A stretch of 64,000 nt of DNA from Giardia intestinalis (lineage: Eukaryota). Of this stretch, positions 15,852 to 30,009 are shown piece after piece (within the stretch, counting starts at the first letter, position 1; each line of letters begins with the position of its first letter). A program made the translations under genes and the position numbers. Below the pieces are notes generated by a model. It searched no databases. It saw only the letters and a program-made list of their open reading frames with translations, and had not been told where the DNA came from. The stretch lies in the NCBI GenBank assembly GCA_000002435.2, contig CM018793.1; one strand, 5' to 3'.

Positions 15852-18800
15852 CTAAATAATGTCGTCGACTATTTGGTTAGCAAAATACTCCTCCAAGGAC
15901 GTAATCGCTCCCCCCAATGCCGCAGATACACTGTCCGCATCTACTTCTAGGAGCCCGACAAGGATAGTATCTATGGCGTGCTTGATGCTTAGCAGTGCGT
16001 GGTGGTGATCGTAGCACGTGATGTCACTCGCCACAACAGCAAGGTTGTCCTTCATCTTCCTGATCACACCTACTCGCCTTGCGGTCCCGTTAAGTATGTC
16101 CTCACACATGAGCTGCTTGGACGCCTCCTCAGATAGAGACTTTAGGCGATCGAAAAGCCGCATGGTGATGTAGATGCTGCGCTTTACCTCGGAGTCCACG
16201 CTTGTCTCTAGGATGTCTGTCGAGAGAGTCAAAAACCGACCCAGCTGGTTGCTAACAAACATGTCGATGAAGTTGTCTGTGTCCATTAATCGCTGAGCTG
16301 TTTGCTTGCGTACTAGCTCTGCATCGTTGTCTTGAGGAATGAGCGCGGTGGGCTTATCCGCCAGCTGAGTGACAGAGCTCGCACTGGGCGCTGGCCGTAT
16401 GAGGGCAGCCGACGGAGGGATCTCCTCTATCTGGCTAAAGCTGTAGAATTGCTCGGCTATCACTTCTGAATTCCACTGTTTAATGGTGTGACTGCAAAGC
16501 TCTCTGAAAGCAGCCTCGTTGATTCTGTTGACGCATCCGTGCTCTCGGCCGAAGTGCAAAAGGATTGTCTGCAGCGCCTGATATAATGTCTTCCTGAAAG
16601 AGGAGTAAGCATAGAAGATTATTGCTACAACCCTGGAGAATGGTATAGTGAGCTCTCTGTATTGCTCTGCTGATCGAGTACGCCTATCATAAACGCTTCC
16701 TATGATAGACGCAGCCAAATCTTCTCTTCGAGCTCGCTCCCAGTTAGTGAACATGATGCTGAGCAGGGGCTCAATAGAGGTGATAGGGATTGGCTCAAGG
16801 ATGTTAATGGTCGCATCACGTAATTCCTTAGCACTGTCAGCAATATATGTGTTGAGCTGAAGCGACCTACGAAGATCCAAGTATGCTAAGAAGTAGTCGT
16901 TATCTAAGTCACTGAAGAGCATGCGGGCAAACAGGTATACTTCATCGTTCTCGTACTGATAGAAAATAACATTTGCGATGATGCAGTATAACAAGCTCGA
17001 AACAAGGGAGCGCAATCCATATCTGCTCTTGCACCAATACACCAAAAAGTGAGGAAGAGATTCTGCGTCTTCTCTACAAAGCTCCCCAGGAACAAGCATG
17101 AACTCATATGCTGTTGTGATGTGTTCGTCAGCCATCGGTGCTGCCCCAACACTGGTAGTGAGTAGATTTTTCTCCACTAAATGCTCAGCCTTGTGTTCAT
17201 CGTGTCGGGCGATAATGATAGTCTCTGTGGCTATTTGGCGCTTATAGAGTACCATTCGAATAATCTTGAGTGTCCATATAAGTGATTTTAGATAGCATGC
17301 AGTGATTGGGATCCTGATGTATGCCTGCTTGCTGACCAGTGATGTTACGATTTGGGTCGGGGTGAGAGTAACTTGCTCCAGTAGCTTGAAGATGATAGGT
17401 AACGAATCTATCGGCGCCATGAGGTCGTGCGAGCTCCCTGCCCCCTTGTCCACATCAAGCATTCCGCGATCTGATGCATAGTGCAGGCTTGCAGAAGATA
17501 GCCGAACGAACGAGACCTGATCACCAACAGTCGGCAATAGGGTGGCCGGCTGCTTGGCCAGTGGCTTCACTATCGGGGACCCCATGCTGGCGTCTTGGGT
17601 CCTTTTGAGTTCGGTATCTATCTGATTAATCGTAGCCTTCTGCAATGCTGATGTTGCAGCCAAATCCTTATGGAACTTAACTCTACTGCTCAAGAGGCAC
17701 GGAGAGCACATGATCTGTCTTGTAGCAGTATTTGCCGGCTTCAGCACTTTGTCGTCAGACGATTCCTGCATTTGAAGAAGAGATGTTTGATTTGAGCTCG
17801 TAGACAGGGTGTACTTGGCAAAGATCTTGTCTAGAGTTGTCTGCATTAGGAAGTAACAATACGGAGTAATGTTGAGTGGATTAGCTTGCATATATGTCAA
17901 GGAGCCATATCTGGGATGAGGTACCGATCCCACCGGAATTGGACCGGTGAACTGCACAAGCTTCGAATCAGTAGGAGATACGTTGTTGAGTGAAGTGACA
18001 ATAAGAAGATCATTTGTTGCGGGTTGCTTTCTATCCTGATGCATCAGCTTAGCTGTTGGAGAGGGTGCTGGAGACTCTGGGGCGGTAACAAAGACGTTGG
18101 TGAGTGCCTTCGTTCCAGTGGATAATGCCTTGTAGTGTGAAGAGGGATCTGTGTTGTCCGCCACACCGATGACTGAGTTGATTGCCCTACTTACGGGCCT
18201 TCGTTGCTTGGCGAAAAGTACATTACTGTTTTGGATGATGTGTTTGATTTCACTAGGCGAAATTCCCATAGATATGGCAGTGTGGTTAGCCATGTAAGGA
18301 TCTGAGCCAAAGAATTTTCTAGTACTTGCCTTGTTTTTGATAATAAAAGGTCGGATAGGCGATACCCCAAAGTTACTGATAAATCTACTCTCCGGCTGTG
18401 CAAGCACATTTAGGTACGCTGCTGACAGTAGCTTTGCGTGTTCGGAATTACTAGGCAGCATGCCTGGCTGGGCTATCTGAATGTACTTCTTGTTATCTCC
18501 TTCAGCTTCAGCCTCTGGCACGGCCGGCAAGTCGGTATGGAGTAGGAACTCGCCCGACGAGCCTCTCCGTAGTTTGTTTACGATTCTGGCAAACTTATTG
18601 CTTGATGTTTGACGGAGCAGTGTGTTGAGCTCCTGTCCTTGGCCATCTAGTGTGGGATCTAGTTCATCGTCCTGATCATCGAGGCTAGTATTTAGACTCG
18701 AATTAAGGTATTTATCAGGGTGCTCCACAAGATTTATGGCTGATTGAAAAGGGAAAAGAGGGGTCACCTGGAGAAGATTTCGCTTTCCACCGGACGCTCC

Positions 18801-21800
18801 GTCAACGGCATTGTCCACCTTATTAGCAGATGTAAGCTGGTTGTTCATGTACAGAAAATCTTCCACAACACTTGTCCTAGGATACTTCGACGGATTGAGT
18901 CCACCAGCAGCCAAAAGACCGGATGTGCCTGGATGTGGTTGGCTCTCTTCAGAGTCGGGCAGGGTGCTCTGCTGTGTGGCTAGAAGAGGGTTGTCAGCAA
19001 AGTCCGCTAAAACGGATCTTCTTGTTTTCTTTCCTTGTGCCTCTTGTAGCAACCTTGCACTAGGCAGCAGGGGCAGGTTTTTCGGTCCAATTATTCCTGG
19101 CAAGATATTATTTCCAGTAATCTGTGTTGCTTCTGTGTGCGGGGCCGATGGCTGGTGCCTATTCTGAGGCCCTTCTGGTTGGGCTGTGGCATAATGTGAC
19201 GTGTCCATGGTAGGAAGGTTGCTCTTTGTGTTCATATTAATACATGAGACATCCACGCCCCGTAAGTGCCTCGGGTTGTCATAGCGGAGGTACTCTCGCG
19301 GGTTTGTTACCTCACGCGCTAGACGGACGGCAGACACAAGCTTGTCAATGTGGTAAGAGTAGACATCTGTTTGAACAGATACTATCTTGGGGGCTTTCAG
19401 GGGCGTAAACAGAGGCTTGTAAATAGAGACATCTTTGTCGGAAGAGCAGATAGAAATAACATCGGTCTGGATTAACTGAGAAAACGACTGGATGAACAGC
19501 TGGATCTCTTCCTGCTTTGCAAAATTATAACGCATAGCAGGGTCGTCACGGGGATAGTGTCCAAATGCATAGCCGCTTATGAAGGACGAGTGGTAGAGCA
19601 CGGGATTGCGCTCCAGAACATCGTTCCATTGCAAGAGTGGTTTGTCTGGTATTGTGTCTGGGACCTTCTCATGCTGATCAGACTGACTACTTACGACAAT
19701 GTGCAGGTCGACCATTGTCTCTGGTTTAATAGTTAGTAGCGACTCGGACTTATCGATAGTCACGTCCTCGTACAACAATTCTCTACAAACACACGTGACA
19801 TTTGTCTGCACTGCACATTCTTCTAGACTCAGTGCACGAAGCTTCGATTGGGAGCGCAGCTTGACAGAGCGGCTATTAGGAGATGTGGAGCCAGTTGACT
19901 TGCGGTCTATAAGCTCCTGAAGTTCAACGGTGAGAGTGTTTAACTCTTCATCTAGATTAGTCAGTTCATTAAGTTGCTCTTTCCACGAAGAGGATTCTGA
20001 CGGCTGTTGAGCGGGCTCCTCTGTCTTTGGCTTGCCGTTAGTGGAGGTATACGCAGAGAAGATAAGATCTGATGTTGCAGAAGCCATTTGCCCAGGTACT
20101 TTTCCGGTGGATAGGATCTCCCGATTAGCAGATAACAGATGCGTAGCTTTGGGTTTAAATTTGGTGCAAGGTTTTGTAGCAGTACCATTGAGATCGGAAA
20201 AGATTACTTCTACATCGGAATTTTGTAGGTCTCCATAGAATTTGGTACCTTGGACTAAGATAGGAACAGGGGCTCCTTTGGCATCTTGTAGGTAAGCCAG
20301 GAAGTGTTTGCTTGTAGAACTGGGGACAGAAAGTTGCTCATCTATTGACTGACGCCCAGTTCCAAGACGAGAAATAGATTGCTCAGAAAGCTGCTTCAAA
20401 GAGGAAGACTCTCTAACATTGACAGGGACAGCGCTCGAAGCTCCACGATGGACTGGATCCTTTTCTATCGGGTTGTCGAGGTCTTTAGGCGTGAGATTAG
20501 TATCATGACCAGGAGGTTTGGAGCAAGAAATCTGAGAAGGCTTTGCTTCATGTGCTGATGAATTGCGAGTACACACAAGAAAGTCAGTAGTAGAGCTCGG
20601 CTTGAGAGATTGTTGCAGCCCCTGGGTAGCGCTGAAAAGATCTACAACGGAGTCGGACACATGCTTAGATACGCTTTTCTCCACGTCTAGCAAGTTATGG
20701 CTAGAGGCAAGGGCATTCTCAGGGTTTCTCTCTAAAGCATCCTTAGTGCTGTGGAAGGCCAGAGTGAATCCGCTTGGAAAGTCTTTGAGCTCTGCATGCT
20801 TCATAGCGTTGTCAAAGCTGTCCATCGCTTCCTGCGAAAAGTATGCAGACGACTGTGCAGCATCCGAGTGAACGGTGATGATGGCGCTTGTCGCACGAGA
20901 TACATAACGAGGATGCTCATCAGAGAAGACAATTGCAGACAAGCCTTCGTCAACAGTCGTTGGCGGAACCGTTTCGAGACCAAGGTGTCTGAGAGTCGGT
21001 CGATCTGAACGGTCTGGTGAAGAGCAGAAACGTTGTTGTTGTGCAGACACAGGTGGAGGCTCTCGAGCTGCTCCTGTAGCATCTTTCTCCTTTTGCACAA
21101 GCGCCTCCGAGCTGCGCTTCTTAAAGCCTTTGTAAAGGAGCTTTTTGTCTTCCTTCCTGAGGACCGGGCCTACTCTATTCATGATCGATTTCACTTGCTC
21201 GGGTATCGGCACAGAGGGGCCAGGGCTATCGACATTCTCTGCTGAAGCTTTTCTATCCTTAAGAGCCCCAGCTCTTCGACGAACTGTCTCAGCAAAGCCC
21301 TTCTTGATGTTCCTTAGTCTAATGGCCTTTGCATTTGTGGTATCGTTGAGGCGCGTCTTTCCAGCTGCATCTATGTATGCATACTTGGTAATGTGCTGCT
21401 GGGTGGCAACGGTCTGTTGCACTGCTTGGTCGCTCACCTCAGTCACAGGTGGCTGCGAACAGCTTTGGTCCGCAATAAAGCTCTGCTTGTCACTTGTTAT
21501 CTCCTCTGCTGCCACGCATTCGTCTGCATAGCAATTGTCCAGTTGTAGTTCTGGCTCGCAATCCAAATCATCCGCCATCAAAATATCTGCGTACATGTGT
21601 TCTGTGGCACGGCTCACCATGGGCACGACAAAGGTGAGCTTCCGCCGTGGCTTGGATGTAGTGACCTTGGCTTCGACGCCGACAGTGTTCACTTGAGGGA
21701 CACCCTGCAGACGCTCTTGTGCGCGGACTGTATGATCTAGAGTGACAGCTTCGCTGTTATCCTTCTCTTCTATAGTGGACGGTGGATCGTTCAGGTGGTT

Positions 21801-24800
21801 GTCCCCCTGCGCATGATCGCTGTCAAGTAAATTGTACGGGATGCTGGATAAGTGTGAGATCTCTGTTCGTTCGTCATCAAGAATGCGCATACGCAACTTA
21901 AAGTCATCAACGAATGAAAACACTATGTCTTGCTTCTCCTCGTCGGTCATGCTAGGTTTGGCGAAATCACTGCCATAAGAATTGTAGAAATCTAGGAACA
22001 GATACTTGAATTCGTCACAAAAGGCACTCTTAAAGAGCATGTAGCTAAGGACCATCTTGATTTGGGCCGCTATCCGTGCGCTCTCCATATTATCGGTCAA
22101 GATAGCCATCATTCTTTCGAAGTCTTCGGCAGAGAGTGTTTCCAGCTCTAAGCTGGTCTCTCGCACATAGGAGGTAGCGAGATGTTGCTTGGTATCTGCG
22201 TCAGGGACGTCTATAACAAGGCCCAACTCATCGGAAGCAGAGTATGCTAGGTCAGATGCAGTATTGCTTTCCACACACGAGTCCCTGGAATCAGCAAGAT
22301 CTTGGGTACGTTGCTGTGCCTGCGCTATGATAGTATTCTTTACGGTATCTTTGCCCTTCTGTGTGCCAGAAGATCTGGCTTTATCAATTGAAGGCTTGGA
22401 GCTACGCTTCTTTGAAATCTTCTTTGGTTTGTTATCCTCTTCGGTCAGATCTTTGTTGGTACCAAGCGTTCGCGTTCTCTCTTTCTCGCCACTCGGCATG
22501 GTGTTGGATGCGGTCGACGCAAGCTGCTTGCCTGACTTGTTGGCTCTAAACGCGCTATTGTGGGCGGAAACTGTTTGACTAACCAAGTCAGCTATGTTCA
22601 GAGGGGTTTCTGCTCCGTGACTACCCAGGACAAGTCCTGCATCTATGACGTGCTCATCACCCAGTACGTCTATCCCTGCATCTCCCGCTGCGGTCTTCAA
22701 AACGTTTTTAATAGCTGTACGCTCTTCCTTGACCAGATCTTGCTTGGTCTTTCCATCCTTTTCAACAATACTATCTGGGCGATTGTAGTCTAAAGCGTAC
22801 GCCGGAATTGCCTGGCCCAGCTGCTTGGAGTATAGATTCTTCAAGGACACGTTCTTCGGTGCAAAAGCAGCAGGATAGCCTTCATAGCTTGCTTTAGATT
22901 GAGCCACGGTCTGCACACCCACAGCTTTTCTAACAACTGTTATCAGCGGTTCCTTATTGATGATGGTGAAAAAGTGGTGGATAGTTGGCGGATCGCGGAG
23001 AGTTCTGAGAAGGTGGACAAGACACGCCAGTCCCAGCTGGTCTATCTCTGGACAAGAGGAGCATATATGTATCACCGTTTCTGGCAGGCTGAGCGTTTCC
23101 ACAGTCTCTGCTGCCATCTGCATTATCTTAGAGGCATTGCCAGATTCCATGATGGAGCGTATGACCGTACGGGTGTCAATTGCCTGAAAATCCTCCGCAG
23201 CATTCAAATCCTCGATTACAGCCCTTAGCTTAGTGATCTCGTGCTCCAACTCCTGTAGTTCTCCTTTGTACTGGATATCTTGCCGTTTCAACTTCTGCAT
23301 CAGAAAGCTAGTCTCTTCAGAAGCCTTTTTGTAGGCCTTTTCCAGTTCCTGCTTGGCCTTGATCTCTAGAATGACCCGCTTCTCTGCATTCTGCGCCCGC
23401 GTGACTGCGCTGTCCGCTATTGTGCGAAGCCGACCTGCTGCAACTGTAAGTCGTTTAGATCGAGCAAAGGCCTCGTCCTTTTCGAGGGCCAGCTCTCCCA
23501 TTTCCACCTCCATGGCGATTCTGGTTTTCTTCATGGCTTCATAGTTATCCTGGAGAGAGTTCAGTTCCCGTTCCACTTTAGCCTTAGCATACTGCAGTGA
23601 GTCCAGTGAGCCGATGGTATTGGCGAGGCTCTCTTTGACCTTATCATATGAAGCCCGCAAGTCACCAAGCTCTTTATACAAGTTCTTGTTTTCTTCCAAC
23701 GTGATCTTAAGGCGCTTTTCCATATCTCGCGCTTGAGTCTTCAGGAGGTCAACTTTACCCGTGCGACGCACAGAGCGTGCAACGAGGTAATCCTTGGACC
23801 TCTCAAGAGTATTAAGCAGGCTGGGAAGTTGCTTATAAAGGCTCGAGATGCTTTCCAAGCGCTGGTCACCCTGGAGGCCGTCGTACTCGTCATACTTCTG
23901 CTGCAACAGCTCCAGCGCAGAGTCAAATGCCATGACAAATGCCTCCAATTCGCTGATTGCTTGACCGCTCTTGAGAGACGGTTCATTGCTTATTAAGCCG
24001 AGTGGGTCCTGTTCATCAGCATTTATATCAGCGATGAGCTCGGCAACTGTGGTGTACTCCTCCGGACTGACAACTCTGCCGGGGACCGCTTTATTGGAGC
24101 GAATCACAGACGTTCTTTGTGTCTCGTGGTCCCTAACTATGATGGCCGACTTTTCTCGCATGTTTCTTATTTTATCCAATTGCTCAACAATCTTCATGTC
24201 TGTACGGTAGTGAAGAACATGGTTTGAAATCTTGACTGGTGCCTGCCCGACGTCAGAGATGCCCTTTTTCTCACGCTGTAAAATAGGGTTTAGCTGCTTG
24301 AACTTATGCTCAGCAGGCGACAAGTCACCAGATCCCTTTGATGTGAAAACGCCCTTGTCTTCATCTTGTTCGCTGTCCGTTAGGACATCTGCGGGAAAAC
24401 AGTCCAGTTTGGTATGGCTGCACGCCTCCTGCTCCAAGCAGTCGAACGTCTGGATGGGTACGCCTGCCTCTTCGTCCGGCGCTCCGGGGTCGTTCGAGAA
24501 AAGCGGGTCAAACCCGTCCAGCGAAATAAGCCGCTCAATACTCAGCTTAAGATTCATTAGCCTCGAGGCGGGTGTCTTGGCCACCTTGATTGTGCCCACC
24601 TTGTCCCCGTCACTTCCAACGATGTGCATGCGTATTCGATCTACATCGTCCTTTACGGTTGCTATTTGCCAATTTCCCATGCTTGCACGCTCTGTGAAGG
24701 TCTTTTCGCGTGCCAGTGTGGTTGAGCGGGACATATCTTTATCAATTGGGTTGATAGCCTCATGTGCGAAAGCGCTGTTCGGTATAAGATCGCCAGGGAT

Positions 24801-25118
24801 GAGAGGGGTGAAAGCATTTGCCTCGGCCTGCGCATCTTCACTGACGCGGGCCTTCGGAAGTCCACTGTCAAGGATGGGGGGCAACTTGTACCTCGCGTTG
24901 GTTAACTTAGGTATCACATATGGATGCTTGCTGTACTCAATGATATCTCCCACGCTGGAAAGGGTTATCGCCCCATCCAGCTCCTCTCGCAGGTTGACCA
25001 TATGAGATGGGGAGTAGGTGGCGGTGGAGCTGGATCGTCTATCTGAGAGCCCCTTTAACTGATACGTACTAGAAGAGGCGTCACTATCCTGCTCCCGTAG
25101 CCTGCCGATAAACTGCAT
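15852..25118 (-). CDS. giant hypothetical protein, 3088 aa, with long central coiled-coil segment
   Basis: The start is ATG at 25118, and the single-exon ORF spans 9.27 kb. The segment LKTQARDMEKRLKITLEENKNLYKELGDLRASYDKVKESLANTIGSLDSLQYAKAKVERELNSLQDNYEAMKK... and the following roughly 200 aa have heptad-like periodicity. The remainder is Ser/Thr-rich low-complexity sequence plus a hydrophobic, helical C-terminal region. Confidence 0.75.
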   Translation of the reverse strand: MQFIGRLREQDSDASSSTYQLKGLSDRRSSSTATYSPSHMVNLREELDGAITLSSVGDIIEYSKHPYVIPKLTNARYKLPPILDSGLPKARVSEDAQAEANAFTPLIPGDLIPNSAFAHEAINPIDKDMSRSTTLAREKTFTERASMGNWQIATVKDDVDRIRMHIVGSDGDKVGTIKVAKTPASRLMNLKLSIERLISLDGFDPLFSNDPGAPDEEAGVPIQTFDCLEQEACSHTKLDCFPADVLTDSEQDEDKGVFTSKGSGDLSPAEHKFKQLNPILQREKKGISDVGQAPVKISNHVLHYRTDMKIVEQLDKIRNMREKSAIIVRDHETQRTSVIRSNKAVPGRVVSPEEYTTVAELIADINADEQDPLGLISNEPSLKSGQAISELEAFVMAFDSALELLQQKYDEYDGLQGDQRLESISSLYKQLPSLLNTLERSKDYLVARSVRRTGKVDLLKTQARDMEKRLKITLEENKNLYKELGDLRASYDKVKESLANTIGSLDSLQYAKAKVERELNSLQDNYEAMKKTRIAMEVEMGELALEKDEAFARSKRLTVAAGRLRTIADSAVTRAQNAEKRVILEIKAKQELEKAYKKASEETSFLMQKLKRQDIQYKGELQELEHEITKLRAVIEDLNAAEDFQAIDTRTVIRSIMESGNASKIMQMAAETVETLSLPETVIHICSSCPEIDQLGLACLVHLLRTLRDPPTIHHFFTIINKEPLITVVRKAVGVQTVAQSKASYEGYPAAFAPKNVSLKNLYSKQLGQAIPAYALDYNRPDSIVEKDGKTKQDLVKEERTAIKNVLKTAAGDAGIDVLGDEHVIDAGLVLGSHGAETPLNIADLVSQTVSAHNSAFRANKSGKQLASTASNTMPSGEKERTRTLGTNKDLTEEDNKPKKISKKRSSKPSIDKARSSGTQKGKDTVKNTIIAQAQQRTQDLADSRDSCVESNTASDLAYSASDELGLVIDVPDADTKQHLATSYVRETSLELETLSAEDFERMMAILTDNMESARIAAQIKMVLSYMLFKSAFCDEFKYLFLDFYNSYGSDFAKPSMTDEEKQDIVFSFVDDFKLRMRILDDERTEISHLSSIPYNLLDSDHAQGDNHLNDPPSTIEEKDNSEAVTLDHTVRAQERLQGVPQVNTVGVEAKVTTSKPRRKLTFVVPMVSRATEHMYADILMADDLDCEPELQLDNCYADECVAAEEITSDKQSFIADQSCSQPPVTEVSDQAVQQTVATQQHITKYAYIDAAGKTRLNDTTNAKAIRLRNIKKGFAETVRRRAGALKDRKASAENVDSPGPSVPIPEQVKSIMNRVGPVLRKEDKKLLYKGFKKRSSEALVQKEKDATGAAREPPPVSAQQQRFCSSPDRSDRPTLRHLGLETVPPTTVDEGLSAIVFSDEHPRYVSRATSAIITVHSDAAQSSAYFSQEAMDSFDNAMKHAELKDFPSGFTLAFHSTKDALERNPENALASSHNLLDVEKSVSKHVSDSVVDLFSATQGLQQSLKPSSTTDFLVCTRNSSAHEAKPSQISCSKPPGHDTNLTPKDLDNPIEKDPVHRGASSAVPVNVRESSSLKQLSEQSISRLGTGRQSIDEQLSVPSSTSKHFLAYLQDAKGAPVPILVQGTKFYGDLQNSDVEVIFSDLNGTATKPCTKFKPKATHLLSANREILSTGKVPGQMASATSDLIFSAYTSTNGKPKTEEPAQQPSESSSWKEQLNELTNLDEELNTLTVELQELIDRKSTGSTSPNSRSVKLRSQSKLRALSLEECAVQTNVTCVCRELLYEDVTIDKSESLLTIKPETMVDLHIVVSSQSDQHEKVPDTIPDKPLLQWNDVLERNPVLYHSSFISGYAFGHYPRDDPAMRYNFAKQEEIQLFIQSFSQLIQTDVISICSSDKDVSIYKPLFTPLKAPKIVSVQTDVYSYHIDKLVSAVRLAREVTNPREYLRYDNPRHLRGVDVSCINMNTKSNLPTMDTSHYATAQPEGPQNRHQPSAPHTEATQITGNNILPGIIGPKNLPLLPSARLLQEAQGKKTRRSVLADFADNPLLATQQSTLPDSEESQPHPGTSGLLAAGGLNPSKYPRTSVVEDFLYMNNQLTSANKVDNAVDGASGGKRNLLQVTPLFPFQSAINLVEHPDKYLNSSLNTSLDDQDDELDPTLDGQGQELNTLLRQTSSNKFARIVNKLRRGSSGEFLLHTDLPAVPEAEAEGDNKKYIQIAQPGMLPSNSEHAKLLSAAYLNVLAQPESRFISNFGVSPIRPFIIKNKASTRKFFGSDPYMANHTAISMGISPSEIKHIIQNSNVLFAKQRRPVSRAINSVIGVADNTDPSSHYKALSTGTKALTNVFVTAPESPAPSPTAKLMHQDRKQPATNDLLIVTSLNNVSPTDSKLVQFTGPIPVGSVPHPRYGSLTYMQANPLNITPYCYFLMQTTLDKIFAKYTLSTSSNQTSLLQMQESSDDKVLKPANTATRQIMCSPCLLSSRVKFHKDLAATSALQKATINQIDTELKRTQDASMGSPIVKPLAKQPATLLPTVGDQVSFVRLSSASLHYASDRGMLDVDKGAGSSHDLMAPIDSLPIIFKLLEQVTLTPTQIVTSLVSKQAYIRIPITACYLKSLIWTLKIIRMVLYKRQIATETIIIARHDEHKAEHLVEKNLLTTSVGAAPMADEHITTAYEFMLVPGELCREDAESLPHFLVYWCKSRYGLRSLVSSLLYCIIANVIFYQYENDEVYLFARMLFSDLDNDYFLAYLDLRRSLQLNTYIADSAKELRDATINILEPIPITSIEPLLSIMFTNWERARREDLAASIIGSVYDRRTRSAEQYRELTIPFSRVVAIIFYAYSSFRKTLYQALQTILLHFGREHGCVNRINEAAFRELCSHTIKQWNSEVIAEQFYSFSQIEEIPPSAALIRPAPSASSVTQLADKPTALIPQDNDAELVRKQTAQRLMDTDNFIDMFVSNQLGRFLTLSTDILETSVDSEVKRSIYITMRLFDRLKSLSEEASKQLMCEDILNGTARRVGVIRKMKDNLAVVASDITCYDHHHALLSIKHAIDTILVGLLEVDADSVSAALGGAITSLEEYFANQIVDDII

Positions 25119-26179: not shown

Positions 26180-26446
26180 CTAAACATATTCATACACGGG
26201 CTGCATTTCTGCATCGTGGCCGACAACGGTTCTCAGTTTATATGTGACGGACGAACGCTCGTCCATGGCAAGGTCAAATATTCCGTAATCTGCGTCTAAT
26301 GGCTGATTGTTCAGGAATAGTTGGATATCTTGGGGGTCGTTTCCAATTAGACGTCCTAGTATTCTGCAAATGTCCCCCACCTTCCCAGAAGGATCTACGA
26401 GGATATAGTATGCGTCCTTACCACGTTTAACAAGAATGTACAGCAT
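26180..26446 (-). CDS. small ubiquitin-like-fold protein, Elongin-B-like
   Basis: It is 88 aa with an ATG start. MLYILVKRGKDAYYILVDPSGKVGDICRILGRLIGNDPQDIQLFLNNQPLDADYGIFDL aligns position by position with the Elongin B UBL [62 protein letters not shown]. There is no C-terminal GG. Confidence 0.4.
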   Translation of the reverse strand: MLYILVKRGKDAYYILVDPSGKVGDICRILGRLIGNDPQDIQLFLNNQPLDADYGIFDLAMDERSSVTYKLRTVVGHDAEMQPVYEYV

Positions 26447-26543: not shown

Positions 26544-27980
26544 ATGATGCTAGAGGACAGATACTATCACTCTCCACGCACACAGCTGACGCCTCTAGTA
26601 AGGAGTGTGCAGAATAGTCTAGATGTAAGGGATAAATCAGTCTCGGGCACGGACGATGATATGGAGCCCACAGCCATAGCCCCGACGCTGGGGGCACCTG
26701 GCTCGTCCCGGGTGGTTTCAAAAACGCCACCCATATCAGCCGCATGCTACGTCCCCCGGATACCCCGGACAGACCATCGCGGACATTTTTTGCGGGGAGC
26801 TACTCTCCAAAAGCTCGAGATACGCGATCCACCGAGGAAGCAATACCGGTCTGTAGCACGGCCGGCCACTACCGCCTTTGATCCGCCATGCTTTCCCGGC
26901 GCCAAGGCAGTGCATCAGATATACCTTGCCAATCAGGCGCATCCAGCCTTTTACCCGCCCCCCTTTCGCCGAAGGAAAAACAAGCTTCTCAGCCAGATTG
27001 CGCTGCCCTTTTCTGTTCCCGACATCGTCACGACTAGTGCTGTTCTGGGCAGAGGGCTGCTTGATGGTATGGATTCCGATCGAGATGGCTTTTCTGCTCC
27101 ACTGTCAGACGGCACCGACGGTACTGACGCCGCAGACATGGTCAGTGCGCCTTATCCTCAGCGGATGCTGTCCCTGATGCTTGCACAGCCTGCCTGCGCT
27201 CGCCTCCTCCACTTCAACGTGTGCATCTCAAACGAACTCTCATCTTCGTCATTTGCCAGTATAAACACAGAGAACTTGGAGCCCACAACGCCTGGTGCTG
27301 AATCGTATCTTGGTAAATCCCCTATCGCAACAATTCTCTCCACACCGTTACCCCAGCCACCCAAGCAATTTCCAATGGCACCCTCTCTTTGTTTAAACGA
27401 GGAGTCTGTTGATCACCAGGGCTCAACCAGAAGCGTATGCTCGGGTCGGAGTCTAGAACCAAATCTCTTTCGCTCCGCCTCTGTCGTGTCCGATTCTGAT
27501 GCACCTACCCCGTTGTCTGGGGAAATCTCTCAGCTCTTCCGTCCGCTCCCAGCCCCAAATGTCCTCCCCTTGCGCTTGGGAGGAGTCCTTTTGCCGGGAG
27601 ACGCTGTCTTGGCTGTACACCCTAAGACGCGTAGGGTTAGCTCCTGCGTTTGGTATAGCAACAGGTGCGTTTTATTCCCTGACGGCACACAATCACATTC
27701 CCATCCCCTGTATCGGGATGCCACACAGCGCGAAGCAGCATACTCTGCAGCGCGCTCCGTTCGGCATGAAGAAATCACTGATCCCTTTGTGTTGGCCGGC
27801 CTTATATTCAGCGCGTTGGGTAATGAGATATCGTGCTCTCCTCGCACCCGGGATTACGACATCATCTCCCTCAGTGAGCTCGTGCTCTCCCCCGTAAAGC
27901 ATCTGCTGAGTGCTGACGAAATAAAGAGAATGGGGGAGAGCCTGGTCCTGGCGCTCTCAGCCGTCAAAGTGAGTATGTAG
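26544..27980 (+). CDS. hypothetical Pro/Ser-rich protein (478 aa). Its C-terminal part may be the degenerate N-lobe of the USP-like gene downstream
   Basis: The start is ATG ATG. Most of the protein is low complexity. The last roughly 120 aa contain RRVSSCVWYSNRCVLF and YRDATQREAAY, which are positioned like very degenerate USP Cys-box and QQD-box remnants. Confidence 0.5.
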   Translation: MMLEDRYYHSPRTQLTPLVRSVQNSLDVRDKSVSGTDDDMEPTAIAPTLGAPGSSRVVSKTPPISAACYVPRIPRTDHRGHFLRGATLQKLEIRDPPRKQYRSVARPATTAFDPPCFPGAKAVHQIYLANQAHPAFYPPPFRRRKNKLLSQIALPFSVPDIVTTSAVLGRGLLDGMDSDRDGFSAPLSDGTDGTDAADMVSAPYPQRMLSLMLAQPACARLLHFNVCISNELSSSSFASINTENLEPTTPGAESYLGKSPIATILSTPLPQPPKQFPMAPSLCLNEESVDHQGSTRSVCSGRSLEPNLFRSASVVSDSDAPTPLSGEISQLFRPLPAPNVLPLRLGGVLLPGDAVLAVHPKTRRVSSCVWYSNRCVLFPDGTQSHSHPLYRDATQREAAYSAARSVRHEEITDPFVLAGLIFSALGNEISCSPRTRDYDIISLSELVLSPVKHLLSADEIKRMGESLVLALSAVKVSM

Positions 27981-28035
27981 CTTTTAGTACGCGCTGCAAG
28001 TCTTTCATGTAAATTCTATGGTGCAATAAAAGCGC

Positions 28036-29322
28036 ATGGAAAGATACCTCCCCCTGGATGCGTCTGAAATCGCAGCAACTGCGCTCCGAGCGTGCAGACA
28101 GAACCATGGAAGCATGGTCGAGGCGCTTCACTCAGTGTCGGCTCAGGTTTCACCCGTTTCGGGATCACTGTCTTCACAGACCACCTGCCAGGAATGTGGC
28201 TACTCGGCCGATCCTCAAATCGTGCAGTACTCTCTCTTGGAAATAGAGACCCCTGCGTTGGATGCTGATCCTTTAACGGCTTCCCGCGAAGGCTATGCTG
28301 CGGCGCTCTCAGAGACGGCCTATTATACTAGAGTCCTGGTACTTCCTCCAAATGGTTCTCCGATCTTCAACTTCCGCCTTCTCTCTACCAAATTGAGCGC
28401 CGCTTACTTGCAAGAATTAATCACGAGCACTCTTGAACTCCCACCAGACACTCCGCTTGCAGCCCTTAGTATAGATAAGGAAATAATCGGGCTTGCAGAC
28501 ATCTTTGCCGAGGAAGATGACACCGGTGATCAGGACCGCAGCGCAAGCCTAGAGCGCTATTGCCGGCTGAACTTCGGTGCCAACCATTGCCTTATCGTTG
28601 CCCCTGTTTTACCAGAAGAGCTTCCTACGGATGATAGGAAAGACGTGATCGTTGACATCTTTATTCAGGGCTCACCAGAGAGTGTTTCAATTCCGCTCAT
28701 TGTGTGCCCAGAGAGCCTAGACAACATTGCCAGGATCGTGCGCCAGCGGCTGGCCCTCTTCTATCCGGATGGGGCTGCACGCAACAGCATTCTGTCCCAA
28801 AGCACGCTCTTATCTTTGACTCCAACTACGGAGTGCTCCCTTAAGTGCGTTGTCTCCTTTGATGCTTCTGTAAGTCCTACTGCGCGGAGTCACGATCTTT
28901 GTAGTGTGTTTCGATCTAGCCCAAGAGTCTTCCCGGTCATGCAGTACACACTGAAAGATTGCATAGAGAATTTCCTGAAAGAAAAACTAGAACCGTCTTT
29001 TGTGTGCCCGAACTGCAAGGCAACGGGGTCGATAATGGTGCAGAAAACGCTGATCAATCAAGGGAAGATCTTACCTACACTGATTTTGAACTCAGCCTCA
29101 CATATCCTATTGCAGGATACTGTTGCTTTTGATTCGTTGCAGCACACAGTTGTCTTGGCAGTCTTACGGGATGGCTCTGGAGAGCTTCTGGTAGCAAATA
29201 GGGTGGATACTCAACTGTGGAGCGTTGATGGGGAAACGCGTAGCCTTGCAGAGTTACAGTCTCTTTCGTGTGTGTTCTTTATCGCTGTGGAGAAACACAT
29301 ATCAAAGGAGATTGACTATTGA
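28036..29322 (+). CDS. USP-fold pseudo-deubiquitinase (zinc ribbon and degenerate His box, no catalytic Cys or His)
   Basis: ATG at 28036 sits in the context aataaaagcgcATG. TCQECGYSADPQIVQYSLLEI and TLKDCIENFLKEKLEPSFVCPNCKATGSIMVQKTLINQGKILPTLILNS match the USP finger-subdomain zinc ribbon (CxxC...sLxdcLxxFxxxExL...CxxC...kxxxixxxPxvLxlhL). HTVVLAVLRDGSGELLVANRVDTQLWSVDGETRSL matches the His-box pattern YxLxAVxxHxGxxxxGHYxAxxxxxxxWxxFDDxxV. In that stretch the catalytic H is replaced by R and GHY by GEL. Confidence 0.45.
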   Translation: MERYLPLDASEIAATALRACRQNHGSMVEALHSVSAQVSPVSGSLSSQTTCQECGYSADPQIVQYSLLEIETPALDADPLTASREGYAAALSETAYYTRVLVLPPNGSPIFNFRLLSTKLSAAYLQELITSTLELPPDTPLAALSIDKEIIGLADIFAEEDDTGDQDRSASLERYCRLNFGANHCLIVAPVLPEELPTDDRKDVIVDIFIQGSPESVSIPLIVCPESLDNIARIVRQRLALFYPDGAARNSILSQSTLLSLTPTTECSLKCVVSFDASVSPTARSHDLCSVFRSSPRVFPVMQYTLKDCIENFLKEKLEPSFVCPNCKATGSIMVQKTLINQGKILPTLILNSASHILLQDTVAFDSLQHTVVLAVLRDGSGELLVANRVDTQLWSVDGETRSLAELQSLSCVFFIAVEKHISKEIDY

Positions 29323-30009
29323 ATTGGCCTGTCTATAAATGGACAGGCGTCGGAGTATAACCATTTGCAAATGTTTGTTCTAGATAAGATAGTTGAAAGT
29401 CACGTGCTTTTCGTTGCAAAAGCGATACGAAAGGAGCTGCTCTTGATGGGTCGACGTGTCACTCTCACGAAGCAGCCAGAGAGCGACTTGCAATCAGTTC
29501 GGTATTCGGATCTCATTTATCTCGCAAATATATCCTGTTCTACACGTTGATCACTCATCGGCATCAACAGCTCCTGGACTAGAGAGAGTGAAAATGCATG
29601 AGATGTACTGCCTGTCGCTTGCGACACATAACGGCCGCCAAGTACTTAGTCCACTAAGTTTTGTGACTGCGCAATGCCCTATAGTGTTGTCTGCAAGCCT
29701 CACTTTAGACACCTCGCTGAGATTGCTACCCAGAGCAGCCTTGCCGCCTTTGGAAACTTCGAACCAACCAGAGCGGAAGGTGCGCAATAATGGATCATTT
29801 TTCCCAGTCTATGAACAGAGAACATGCCGTTTAATCAGACCATTGACTCTCCCAGAACAGCGTAAATTGCTAGGTCCCAAATTTCTAAGTTCGCTTTGAG
29901 GATACGTGCATAAAATGGTATAGTGCACATGTAAAGATTAGCTGGCCATCTGCGTTAACAGAATACTTCTGCTCTAATAAATCGATTGCGGAGTACAAGA
30001 TCACACACC

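What the first reader, a model, noticed from the sequence alone, without database searches (positions are those of the whole stretch)
26544..29322. USP-fold pseudo-deubiquitinase apparently split across two adjacent same-strand ORFs
The downstream ORF (28036-29322) has a clear USP finger zinc ribbon and a His-box-like segment in which the catalytic His is replaced (LAVLRDGSGELL). The expected Cys box is missing from that ORF. A faint Cys-box-like remnant (RRVSSCVWYSNRCVLF) and a QQD-like remnant lie in the last 120 aa of the upstream ORF (26544-27980), at the right distance from the zinc ribbon. The two ORFs are 55 nt apart and in different frames. The interval starts with AAA|GTGAGTATGT, a canonical GTRAGT donor that overlaps the stop. 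An AG at 28031-28032 would rejoin the two frames exactly (hypothetical 64-nt intron 27969..28032, junction ...SAVK|RMERYL...). The intron lacks the extended CTRACACACAG-type 3' motif I recall for known Giardia introns, so this is unproven. Other possibilities are a frameshift or assembly error, or two separate genes derived from an ancient fission. In any case it is a catalytically dead USP-like protein.
Basis: partly seen in the sequence, partly recalled or inferred. Interest (0 to 1): 0.6.

Follow-up and report, generated by a model that had tools for sequence, protein, structure and literature searches.

The report
Two Giardia genes, one dead USP remnant
The two neighbouring reading frames are separate Giardia genes rather than one gene split by an intron, and the downstream one looks like a previously unlisted, catalytically dead, N-terminally truncated relative of ubiquitin-specific proteases.

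Summary
The window is Giardia intestinalis WB. The two ORFs are the annotated hypothetical proteins GL50803_14906 (478 aa) and GL50803_23694 (428 aa).

The split-gene and intron reading fails:
- The proposed AG acceptor is missing in assemblages E and B.
- The spacer is 55 nt in A and E but 53 nt in B, so the frame relation differs.
- The stop, the ATG and an in-frame stop just upstream of the ATG are conserved.
- The Giardia 3' intron motif is absent.
- In G. muris the 23694 orthologue stands alone, behind an unrelated phospholipase-B gene.
- Adding the upstream C-terminus gives no gain against USP profiles.

Assembly error is excluded, because the same proteins occur on more than 170 independent contigs. 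Both genes are under purifying selection (dN/dS 0.08-0.16).

The USP idea is partly right. The two CxxC pairs and their flanks match USP boxes 3-4 (hhalign E 1.7e-6, probability 90%, about 10.8 sd above shuffles). A roughly 220-aa insert sits between the pairs. The match stays below Pfam's cut-off. The "His box" is only positional, the Cys box and thumb are absent, and structure prediction failed. This is a modest finding: a new, divergent pseudo-USP.

The parts
26544..27980 (+). GL50803_14906, a conserved hypothetical protein of 478 aa and an independent gene
   Evidence: Exact protein is in NCBI as GL50803_0014906. Orthologues of 475-478 aa in assemblages E, B and two further lineages all end in ...SAVKVSM*. 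dN/dS is 0.08-0.11. No Pfam or PDB match.
27534..27977 (+). Strongly conserved C-terminal domain of 14906 (aa 331-478).
   Evidence: A vs B dN is 0.068 here versus 0.162 for aa 1-330. hhalign against the USP profile scores 16.4, inside the shuffle null of 14.1 +/- 2.6. The AF2 model is unusable, pLDDT 30.
27969..28032 (+). Not supported.
   Evidence: The AG at 28031-32 is replaced in P15 (AAAAACGCATG) and in B (AAATCACATG). P15 has no in-frame acceptor for this donor, and B would need a different acceptor inside the downstream ORF. No HCTRACMCVCAG motif within 5 kb, even allowing 1 mismatch.
27978..27980 (+). TAG stop of 14906
   Evidence: The stop is at the same position in A, E and B (TAG) and in L006/L007 (TAA).
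27981..28035 (.). 55-nt intergenic spacer
   Evidence: 55 nt in A and E, 53 nt in B, so the frame offset is +1 versus +2. A vs E identity is 67%, versus 82-86% in the flanking coding sequences.
28008..28013 (+). TGTAAA, a poly(A)-signal-like hexamer one mismatch from the Giardia AGURAA signal. Probable 3'-end signal of 14906.
   Evidence: Conserved in A, E, B and L007. The same ATGTAAATT follows the stop of the 3088-aa gene in this window. The AGURAA signal and its 13-15 nt distance to the cleavage site are from PMC9014877.
28022..28035 (+). A/T-rich element TGCAATAAAAGCGC directly upstream of the 23694 ATG. Probable initiator/promoter of 23694. It contains an in-frame TAA (28027-28029).
   Evidence: TGCAATTAAAAC precedes the ATG in B and L005, and TGTAATTAAAAC in L002, even where the upstream flank is unrelated. 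In-frame stops lie 2-3 codons (A, E) or 0 codons (G. muris) before the ATG. That short A/T-rich initiators sit next to Giardia start codons is established knowledge, not tested here.
28036..29322 (+). GL50803_23694, 428 aa: a USP-derived, catalytically dead protein lacking the Cys box and thumb. It is an independent gene.
   Evidence: Exact protein is in NCBI as GL50803_0023694 and occurs on 182 contigs. Orthologues of 420-439 aa include G. muris P0011. dN/dS is 0.11-0.16.
28138..28263 (+). USP box-3-like segment (aa 35-76) with the first zinc pair C51-x2-C54 (28186-28197)
   Evidence: hhalign maps aa 35-63 to USP21 catalytic-domain positions 159-187. Score is 23.4 versus a null of 12.4 +/- 2.9, maximum 21.4. 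C51 and C54 are invariant in all 7 orthologues.
28264..28923 (+). Insert of about 220 aa (aa 77-296) between the two zinc pairs. It is the best-conserved part and holds an invariant C176...H184-C185.
   Evidence: No similarity to the USP core: 15.1 versus a null of 15.6. It has the lowest dN in the protein. Invariant residues are listed. The position matches the insertion point of USP4/11/15, whose crystal constructs join D1 and D2 at this point. A UBL nature of the insert is inference only.
28924..29112 (+). USP box-4-like segment (aa 297-359): TLKDCIENFLKEKLEPSFVCPNCK..., with the second zinc pair C324-x2-C327 (29005-29016)
   Evidence: hhalign maps aa 303-359 to USP21 positions 204-264. Score is 37.0 versus a null of 13.9 +/- 2.8, maximum 20.7. 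Pfam UCH_1 positions 132-220 match across both zinc pairs in the insert-deleted construct. C324 and C327 are invariant.
29113..29319 (+). C-terminal segment (aa 360-428) that includes LAVLRDGSGELL. It sits where the His box and palm would be, but no similarity is detectable.
   Evidence: It aligns to the USP His box only as an extension of the box-4 hit. Alone it scores 12.1 versus a null of 12.7 +/- 2.6. No His or Asp is conserved in this segment, and W395 and G382 are invariant.

Best explanation
The locus holds two autonomous, adjacent Giardia genes, separated by an ordinary compact intergenic spacer. The spacer carries a poly(A)-signal-like UGUAAA for the upstream gene and an A/T-rich initiator for the downstream gene.

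The upstream gene, GL50803_14906, is a conserved Giardia-specific protein with no detectable relation to USPs.

The downstream gene, GL50803_23694, descends from a ubiquitin-specific protease domain. It keeps the finger zinc ribbon (two CxxC pairs with the flanking box-3 and box-4 motifs) and probably the palm. It has lost the whole N-terminal Cys-box/thumb half and the catalytic His and Asp, so it cannot be a cysteine protease. It carries a conserved insert of about 220 aa between the zinc pairs, at the point where USP4/11/15 carry theirs.

Shown: separateness of the genes, purifying selection, homology of the zinc-ribbon region, and absence of catalytic residues. Inferred: the protein acts non-catalytically as a binding or scaffold module, perhaps for ubiquitin or a ubiquitin-like protein through the fingers, with the conserved insert as the main functional surface.
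For: Identity and separateness:
- Both exact proteins are annotated separately in WB, DH and P15.
- The stop, the ATG and in-frame leader stops are conserved.
- The spacer is 55 nt versus 53 nt, which changes the frame relation. The proposed AG is not conserved and P15 has no in-frame partner for the donor.
- The Giardia 3' intron motif is absent (PMC4085374).
- The G. muris orthologue (439 aa) follows a Phospholip_B gene, with no 14906-like sequence within 5 kb either side.
- The same ORF ends occur on more than 170 contigs.
- dN/dS is 0.08-0.16 for both genes.
- Genome-wide RNA-seq and motif surveys of Giardia introns do not list this locus (PMC3610916; PMC4085374).

USP descent:
- hhalign of the 7-sequence family against a verified USP21/2/8/15 profile gives E 5.6e-4 for the full length.
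- With the insert removed it gives E 1.7e-6, probability 90% and score 49.7, versus shuffles of 15.0 +/- 3.2 with a maximum of 30.3.
- The two halves map independently and co-linearly.
- UCH_1 is the top Pfam hit, with E 0.0046.
- The four zinc Cys are invariant out to G. muris.

No contribution from the upstream ORF.
Against: - The USP match is below Pfam's gathering score (17.1 versus 22.2 bits).
- Much of the hhalign signal comes from the four zinc cysteines. Masking them drops the score to 24.1, about 2.8 sd above the null.
- The C-terminal 'His-box' part and the N-terminal 34 aa show no detectable similarity.
- AF2 models of both proteins are unusable, with pLDDT 34 and 30, so the fold is not confirmed.
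- The insert boundaries for the best hhalign score were chosen after seeing the motifs.
- No transcript data for this locus could be examined directly.
- The proposed non-catalytic binding function is pure inference.
Confidence: 0.72

Rival explanations
1. One USP-like gene interrupted by a 64-nt spliceosomal intron (27969-28032) that joins the two ORFs.
For: In WB a GTGAGT donor overlapping the stop and an AG at 28031-32 restore the frame. A Giardia-type GTATG also lies at 27973 in A1 (motif from PMC4085374).
Against: The AG is absent in P15 and B, and P15 has no in-frame acceptor for that donor. B has a 53-nt spacer and would need an acceptor inside the downstream ORF. GTATG reads GCATG in E and B. 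There is no HCTRACMCVCAG motif. Nine in-frame GT..AG pairs occur by chance in A1 alone. The G. muris orthologue has a different upstream gene. The fused protein gives no better USP score. The locus is not among published intron candidates.
Confidence: 0.02
2. Ancient gene fission. The C-terminal domain of 14906 would be the degenerate Cys-box/thumb half, and 23694 the finger/palm half, of one former USP. The two are now separate genes whose products might still associate as a two-chain pseudo-USP.
For: The genes are adjacent on the same strand in assemblages A, E and B. The lengths fit: about 70 aa from C368/C375 to the proposed QQD position, and about 90 aa from there to the first CxxC. The best, non-significant hhalign alignment places WYGNRC on the USP NLGNTC and covers USP positions 7-166, the part 23694 lacks. 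The 14906 C-terminal domain is strongly conserved.
Against: That alignment scores at the shuffle null, 16.4 versus 14.1 +/- 2.6. Fusing the domain adds nothing: 52.9 versus 53.8, with a shuffled control of 54.1 +/- 2.2, and Pfam UCH_1 15.9 versus 17.1 bits. There is no 14906 homologue next to the G. muris orthologue and none was found outside G. intestinalis. The low-confidence AF2 model puts beta-strands, not the Cys-box helix, over SSCVWY/RCVLF.
Confidence: 0.06
3. Sequencing or assembly frameshift, or a strain-specific disruptive mutation, in what is really one ORF.
For: The ORFs are only 55 nt apart and in different frames.
Against: The identical 428-aa protein is on 182 contigs, and the 477/478-aa protein with the same C-terminus is on more than 170 contigs from independent runs. 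The same two-ORF layout is seen in P15, in assemblage B and in DH. Stops in all three frames separate the ORFs in A1.
Confidence: 0.01
4. 23694 is not USP-derived at all. It would be an unrelated Giardia-specific zinc-ribbon protein whose CxxC...CxxC context resembles USP fingers by chance or convergence.
For: No Pfam or PDB sequence hit reaches threshold. Masking the four Cys removes about half of the hhalign score. Only about 100 of 428 residues show similarity. The fold is not confirmed.
Against: Two independent segments hit adjacent USP positions in the right order, each above every shuffle. With Cys masked, the alignment still lands on the same USP region. UCH_1 ranks first of 24,736 Pfam models for the insert-deleted protein. 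The non-Cys motif TLKDCIENFLKE..L matches the USP sLxDCLxlFtkEE.L.
Confidence: 0.18

Closest known systems
USP4/USP11/USP15-type ubiquitin-specific proteases (peptidase family C19), which carry a large insert inside the catalytic domain
   Same: A finger zinc ribbon made of two CxxC pairs with the flanking box-3 and box-4 motifs. A long insert lies between the two zinc pairs, at the point where USP15, USP4 and USP11 crystal constructs join D1 to D2.
   Different: No Cys box or thumb (USP21 positions 1-155 have no counterpart). No catalytic His or Asp. The His-box region is unrecognisable. The insert shows no detectable similarity to anything tested. The match is below the Pfam threshold.
Catalytically inactive USP-fold proteins: USP39/Sad1 of the tri-snRNP and the USP-like domain of PAN2 (the Pfam UCH_1 family)
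   Same: A USP-derived domain without a functional catalytic triad, presumably used as a binding or scaffold module. UCH_1 is the best Pfam match. USP39/Sad1 appears among the USP structures listed.
   Different: From established knowledge, not tested here, those proteins keep the complete thumb-palm-fingers fold and have accessory domains (ZnF-UBP in Sad1; WD40 and an exonuclease in PAN2). 23694 lacks the entire N-terminal half and has no such accessory domains.
Known Giardia spliceosomal cis-introns (for example ferredoxin, Rpl7a, GL50803_86945, GL50803_15525)
   Same: GT...AG ends and a short length (64 nt, against a known range of 29-220 nt) (PMC4085374).
   Different: It lacks the 3' HCTRACMCVCAG motif. 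The proposed donor is GTGAGT, not STATG. The splice sites and the frame relation are not conserved between assemblages.
Canonical Giardia USPs in the published ubiquitin-system inventory (GL50803_14460, 16090, 5533, 6317, ...)
   Same: The same superfamily, found in the same genome by Pfam UCH models (PMC7029713).
   Different: Neither 23694 nor 14906 is in that inventory or its supplement. 23694 does not reach the Pfam threshold and lacks the catalytic boxes.

Membership tests
USP / peptidase C19 (Pfam UCH PF00443, UCH_1 PF13423) | N-terminal Cys box (GLxNxGNTC...) with the catalytic cysteine, followed by the helical thumb and the QQD box | tested here: not met
   USP homology in 23694 begins at aa ~32-35, equivalent to USP21 catalytic-domain position ~156-159. 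The N-terminal 34 aa give no match. The C-terminus of the upstream ORF scores at the null level and adds nothing when fused.
USP / peptidase C19 (Pfam UCH PF00443, UCH_1 PF13423) | His box with the catalytic His and the Asp/Asn box | tested here: not met
   In the extended alignment the catalytic His column holds G, D, S or P, and the Asp column is not conserved. The segment aa 362-428 alone is indistinguishable from shuffles.
USP / peptidase C19 (Pfam UCH PF00443, UCH_1 PF13423) | Finger subdomain zinc ribbon: two CxxC pairs with conserved flanks (boxes 3 and 4) | tested here: met
   hhalign gives E 1.7e-6, probability 90% and about 10.8 sd above shuffles. Both halves are independently above all shuffles and co-linear. 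The four Cys are invariant, including in G. muris.
USP / peptidase C19 (Pfam UCH PF00443, UCH_1 PF13423) | Score at or above the curated Pfam gathering threshold | tested here: not met
   The native protein gives no UCH hit at E<=10. Two of 7 orthologues hit UCH_1 at E 0.17 or weaker. The insert-deleted construct scores 17.1 bits against a cut-off of 22.2.
USP / peptidase C19 (Pfam UCH PF00443, UCH_1 PF13423) | Thumb-palm-fingers three-dimensional fold | tested here: inconclusive
   The AF2 model built on 6 sequences has mean pLDDT 34.5 and pTM 0.21. It is too poor for a fold search, so none was run.
Giardia spliceosomal cis-intron | 5' motif STATG at the donor | tested here: not met
A GTATG lies 4 nt further on in A1, but its in-frame acceptors either lead into a stop codon or delete part of the downstream ORF. 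It reads GCATG in E and B. The motif is from PMC4085374.
Giardia spliceosomal cis-intron | 3' motif HCTRACMCVCAG ending in the acceptor, within 300 bp of the donor | tested here: not met
   With up to 1 mismatch, the nearest matches in the window are at 22359 and 42979.
Giardia spliceosomal cis-intron | Splice sites and reading-frame restoration conserved in other assemblages | tested here: not met
   The AG is lost in E and B. P15 has no in-frame acceptor for the donor. The spacer is 53 nt in B.
Giardia spliceosomal cis-intron | Spliced mRNA observed | not testable with these tools
   No read data are available here. Published genome-wide junction and motif surveys do not list this locus (PMC3610916; PMC4085374). 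The gene IDs were not found in the held supplements.

The most novel reading that the evidence does not exclude
GL50803_23694 may be a genus-wide 'thumbless' USP derivative. It would work only together with a partner that supplies the missing half, namely the conserved C-terminal domain of the neighbouring GL50803_14906, whose WYGNRC would be a relic Cys box. That would make it a two-gene, two-chain pseudo-USP produced by ancient fission, which I am not aware of having been described for the USP family.
Probability: 0.05. Interest if true: 0.6.

Novelty: new variant of a known kind. Interest (0 to 1): 0.28.

Why it matters
The result removes a false candidate from the very short list of possible Giardia introns. 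Giardia has only about eight cis-introns, so each candidate matters.

It also adds an unrecognised, highly divergent pseudo-USP to Giardia's ubiquitin-system inventory. The protein is conserved from G. muris to G. intestinalis and is under purifying selection. It retains only the finger/palm side of the USP hand plus a conserved insert, so it shows how far a USP domain can be cut down and still be kept. The practical impact is modest.

Tried and rejected
- Pfam on both native ORFs and on the 904-aa fusion gave no UCH hit.
- PDB sequence and profile searches with both families gave nothing at E<=10.
- An exhaustive profile search of 1.84 billion representatives with the 23694 family found only Giardia proteins, the G. 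muris orthologue and one spurious repetitive bacterial protein.
- AF2 on both families gave pLDDT 34 and 30. No fold search was run because the matches would be meaningless.
- Rfam on the whole window gave no hit.
- The bacterial promoter/terminator scan is not relevant to Giardia.
- The gene IDs were not found in the full text of the paper library, nor in the held supplements of three Giardia papers.
- I tried to bridge the junction in the more divergent C/D-like lineages. The contigs end or begin at the junction with unrelated sequence, so adjacency there is unresolved.
- A permuted or relocated thumb inside the insert was rejected: 15.1 versus a null of 15.6.
- Trans-splicing of 23694 was considered and rejected, because there is no acceptor motif upstream.
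- Frameshifting or readthrough was rejected, because stops in all frames lie between the ORFs and the frame offset differs between assemblages.
- The internal insert of USP15 that I recalled from memory could not be verified against any tool, so it was not used.
Full report
**What is there.** The window is from Giardia intestinalis WB (assemblage A1). The upstream ORF (26544-27980, 478 aa) is exactly GL50803_0014906. The downstream ORF (28036-29322, 428 aa) is exactly GL50803_0023694. Both are annotated as hypothetical proteins. Every sequence detail in the finding is present:
- the ORFs are on the same strand, 55 nt apart and in different frames;
- AAA|GTGAGTATGT overlaps the TAG stop;
- there is an AG at 28031-32;
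- removing 27969-28032 gives an in-frame junction SAVK|RMERYL.

**Is it one gene with an intron? No.** I fetched the orthologous loci from assemblage E (P15, L001), assemblage B-like genomes (L008, L004), more divergent G. intestinalis-group lineages (L002, L005-L007) and G. muris (L009).
- In A, E and B the upstream ORF ends at the same ...SAVKVSM-stop, and the downstream ORF starts at the same ATG.
- The proposed acceptor AG is not conserved. A1 reads AAAAGCGCATG, P15 reads AAAAACGCATG and B reads AAATCACATG.
- In P15 no AG at all restores the frame for the proposed donor. In B the only in-frame AG lies inside the downstream ORF.
- The spacer is 55 nt in A and E but 53 nt in B, so the frame offset between the ORFs is +1 in A and E and +2 in B. 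That is expected for a non-coding spacer and not for an intron or a programmed frameshift.
- In A1 alone nine different GT..AG pairs restore the frame, so one such pair is expected by chance.
- Giardia introns carry 5'-STATG and 3'-HCTRACMCVCAG (PMC4085374). No 3' motif occurs within kilobases, even with one mismatch. The GTATG at 27973 in A1 reads GCATG in E and B.
- The downstream frame is closed by an in-frame stop 2 codons (A1), 3 codons (P15) or 0 codons (G. muris) before the ATG.

**Is it an assembly or frameshift error? No.** The identical 428-aa protein occurs on 182 contigs. The 477/478-aa upstream protein with the same C-terminus occurs on more than 170 contigs from independent sequencing runs. 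Its length variants differ only at the N-terminus.

**G. muris.** The exhaustive profile search found a 439-aa G. muris orthologue, P0011 (E 5e-12), with all four zinc cysteines conserved.
- Its downstream neighbour is the same giant gene as in WB.
- Its upstream neighbour is a Phospholip_B gene that ends 68 nt away and is unrelated to 14906.
- No 14906-like sequence lies within 5 kb on either side.
- The truncated, stand-alone form of the gene therefore predates the G. muris / G. intestinalis split.

**The spacer looks like a normal Giardia intergenic region.**
- TGTAAA (28008-13) is conserved in A, E, B and L007. It is one mismatch from the AGURAA poly(A) signal, which normally lies 13-15 nt from the cleavage site (PMC9014877).
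- The same ATGTAAATT follows the stop of the 3088-aa gene in this window.
- TGCAAT(T)AAAA directly precedes the ATG, and does so even in lineages whose upstream flank is unrelated (L002, L005). The element therefore belongs to the downstream gene, as an A/T-rich initiator would.
- Spacer identity between A and E is 67%, against 82-86% in the coding regions.
- Both genes are under purifying selection, with dN/dS 0.08-0.16.
- Published genome-wide intron surveys do not list this locus.

**Is the downstream protein USP-like? Partly supported.**
- Native sequences give no Pfam UCH hit. Two of seven orthologues touch UCH_1 at E 0.17 or weaker. PDB searches find nothing.
- I built a USP profile from USP21 orthologues plus USP2, USP8 and USP15-D1D2.
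- hhalign of the 7-sequence Giardia family against this profile gives E 5.6e-4.
- With the roughly 220-aa segment between the two CxxC pairs removed, it gives E 1.7e-6, probability 90% and score 49.7. That compares with 15.0 +/- 3.2 (maximum 30.3) for 150 column shuffles and 16.4 for the reversed alignment.
- The two flanks hit independently and in the right order. Residues 35-63 map to USP21 positions 159-187 (23.4 versus 12.4 +/- 2.9). Residues 303-359 map to positions 204-264 (37.0 versus 13.9 +/- 2.8).
- Masking the four zinc cysteines lowers the score to 24.1, but the alignment stays on the same region.
- For the insert-deleted protein, UCH_1 becomes the top Pfam hit (E 0.0046, 17.1 bits, cut-off 22.2).
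- The finger zinc ribbon with its box-3 and box-4 flanks is therefore credibly USP-derived.
- The rest is weaker. The 'His-box-like' LAVLRDGSGELL segment aligns only as an extension of the box-4 hit and on its own is at the null level.
- The N-terminal 34 residues and the insert do not match USPs.
- No His or Asp is conserved in the C-terminal segment where the His and Asp boxes would lie. The protein cannot be an active USP, and it lacks the entire Cys-box/thumb half.
- AF2 failed (pLDDT 34.5), so the fold is unconfirmed.

**Does the upstream ORF supply the missing half? No evidence.**
- Its C-terminal 149 residues are strongly conserved.
- They score 16.4 against the USP profile, with a null of 14.1 +/- 2.6.
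- The best alignment curiously places WYGNRC on NLGNTC and covers USP positions 7-166.
- Fusing this domain to the downstream core does not raise the score. It gives 52.9 versus 53.8 for the core alone, and 54.1 +/- 2.2 with the upstream part shuffled. For Pfam UCH_1 it gives 15.9 versus 17.1 bits over the same matched region.
- AF2 of the upstream protein was unusable (pLDDT 30). There are no Pfam or PDB hits.

**What it most likely is and does.** GL50803_23694 is an autonomous, Giardia-genus-specific, catalytically dead remnant of a USP domain. It has fingers, a probable palm and a conserved insert at the USP4/11/15 insertion point.
- The insert is its best-conserved part and holds an invariant C176...H184-C185.
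- By analogy with other inactive USP-fold proteins (Sad1/USP39, PAN2), I infer a non-catalytic binding or scaffold role. This is not shown.
- The protein is absent from the published HMM-based inventory of Giardia's ubiquitin system (PMC7029713), so recognising it is new but incremental.

**Verdict.** The split-gene, intron and frameshift readings are refuted. The pseudo-USP reading is partly supported, for the zinc-ribbon region only. It is a new, divergent variant of a known kind, and interest is low to moderate.

Noticed in passing
window 28264-28923 (aa 77-296 of GL50803_23694): The insert between the two zinc pairs is the most conserved part of the protein (A vs B dN 0.187, versus 0.24-0.33 in the USP-like flanks). 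It contains C176...H184-C185, invariant even in G. muris. It has no similarity to the USP core, and its nature (UBL-like?) is unknown.
   Followed up: partly
L006:4435-4518, L007:4438-4655, L005:1-116, L002:1-325: In the more divergent (C/D-like) Giardia assemblies the contigs stop or start right at the 14906|23694 junction. They carry unrelated sequence after the 14906 stop and before the 23694 ATG. Only a ~22-nt CATACCTT..GT..AAATC..CAAA piece is shared (L007 and L005). This could be an insertion, a rearrangement or an assembly break, so adjacency in these lineages is unresolved.
   Followed up: partly
window 29323-30009: There is an unusually long spacer (~690 nt) for Giardia between GL50803_23694 and the first ATG of the 7679-aa ORF. 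It is 75% identical to P15 and has no blastn match in assemblage B. In G. muris the giant gene instead overlaps the 3' end of the USP-like gene (L009 6286 versus 6320). No Rfam hit.
   Followed up: partly
window 28007-28015 and minus strand just 3' of the stop at 15852: The same ATGTAAATT follows the stop codons of GL50803_14906 and of the 3088-aa minus-strand gene. It suggests UGUAAA acts as a variant of the AGURAA poly(A) signal.
   Followed up: no
window 26180-26446 (minus strand): An 88-aa ORF is called at the same place in all assemblages examined (77-89 aa). It has no Pfam match. By eye it looks vaguely ubiquitin-like or Elongin-B-like, but this was not tested further.
   Followed up: partly
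window 27534-27977 (aa 331-478 of GL50803_14906): This C-terminal domain is very strongly conserved (A vs B dN 0.068), with predicted beta-hairpins followed by four helices. It has no Pfam or PDB match, and no relatives were found outside the G. intestinalis group. The N-terminal 330 aa are less conserved, and the model predicts almost no regular secondary structure there.
   Followed up: partly
window 15852-25118 (minus strand) and 29986-53025 (plus strand): Two giant ORFs (3088 aa and 7679 aa) flank the locus. The 3088-aa protein has no Pfam domain at E<=0.01. The 7679-aa protein exceeded the size limit of the family search and was not examined.
   Followed up: no
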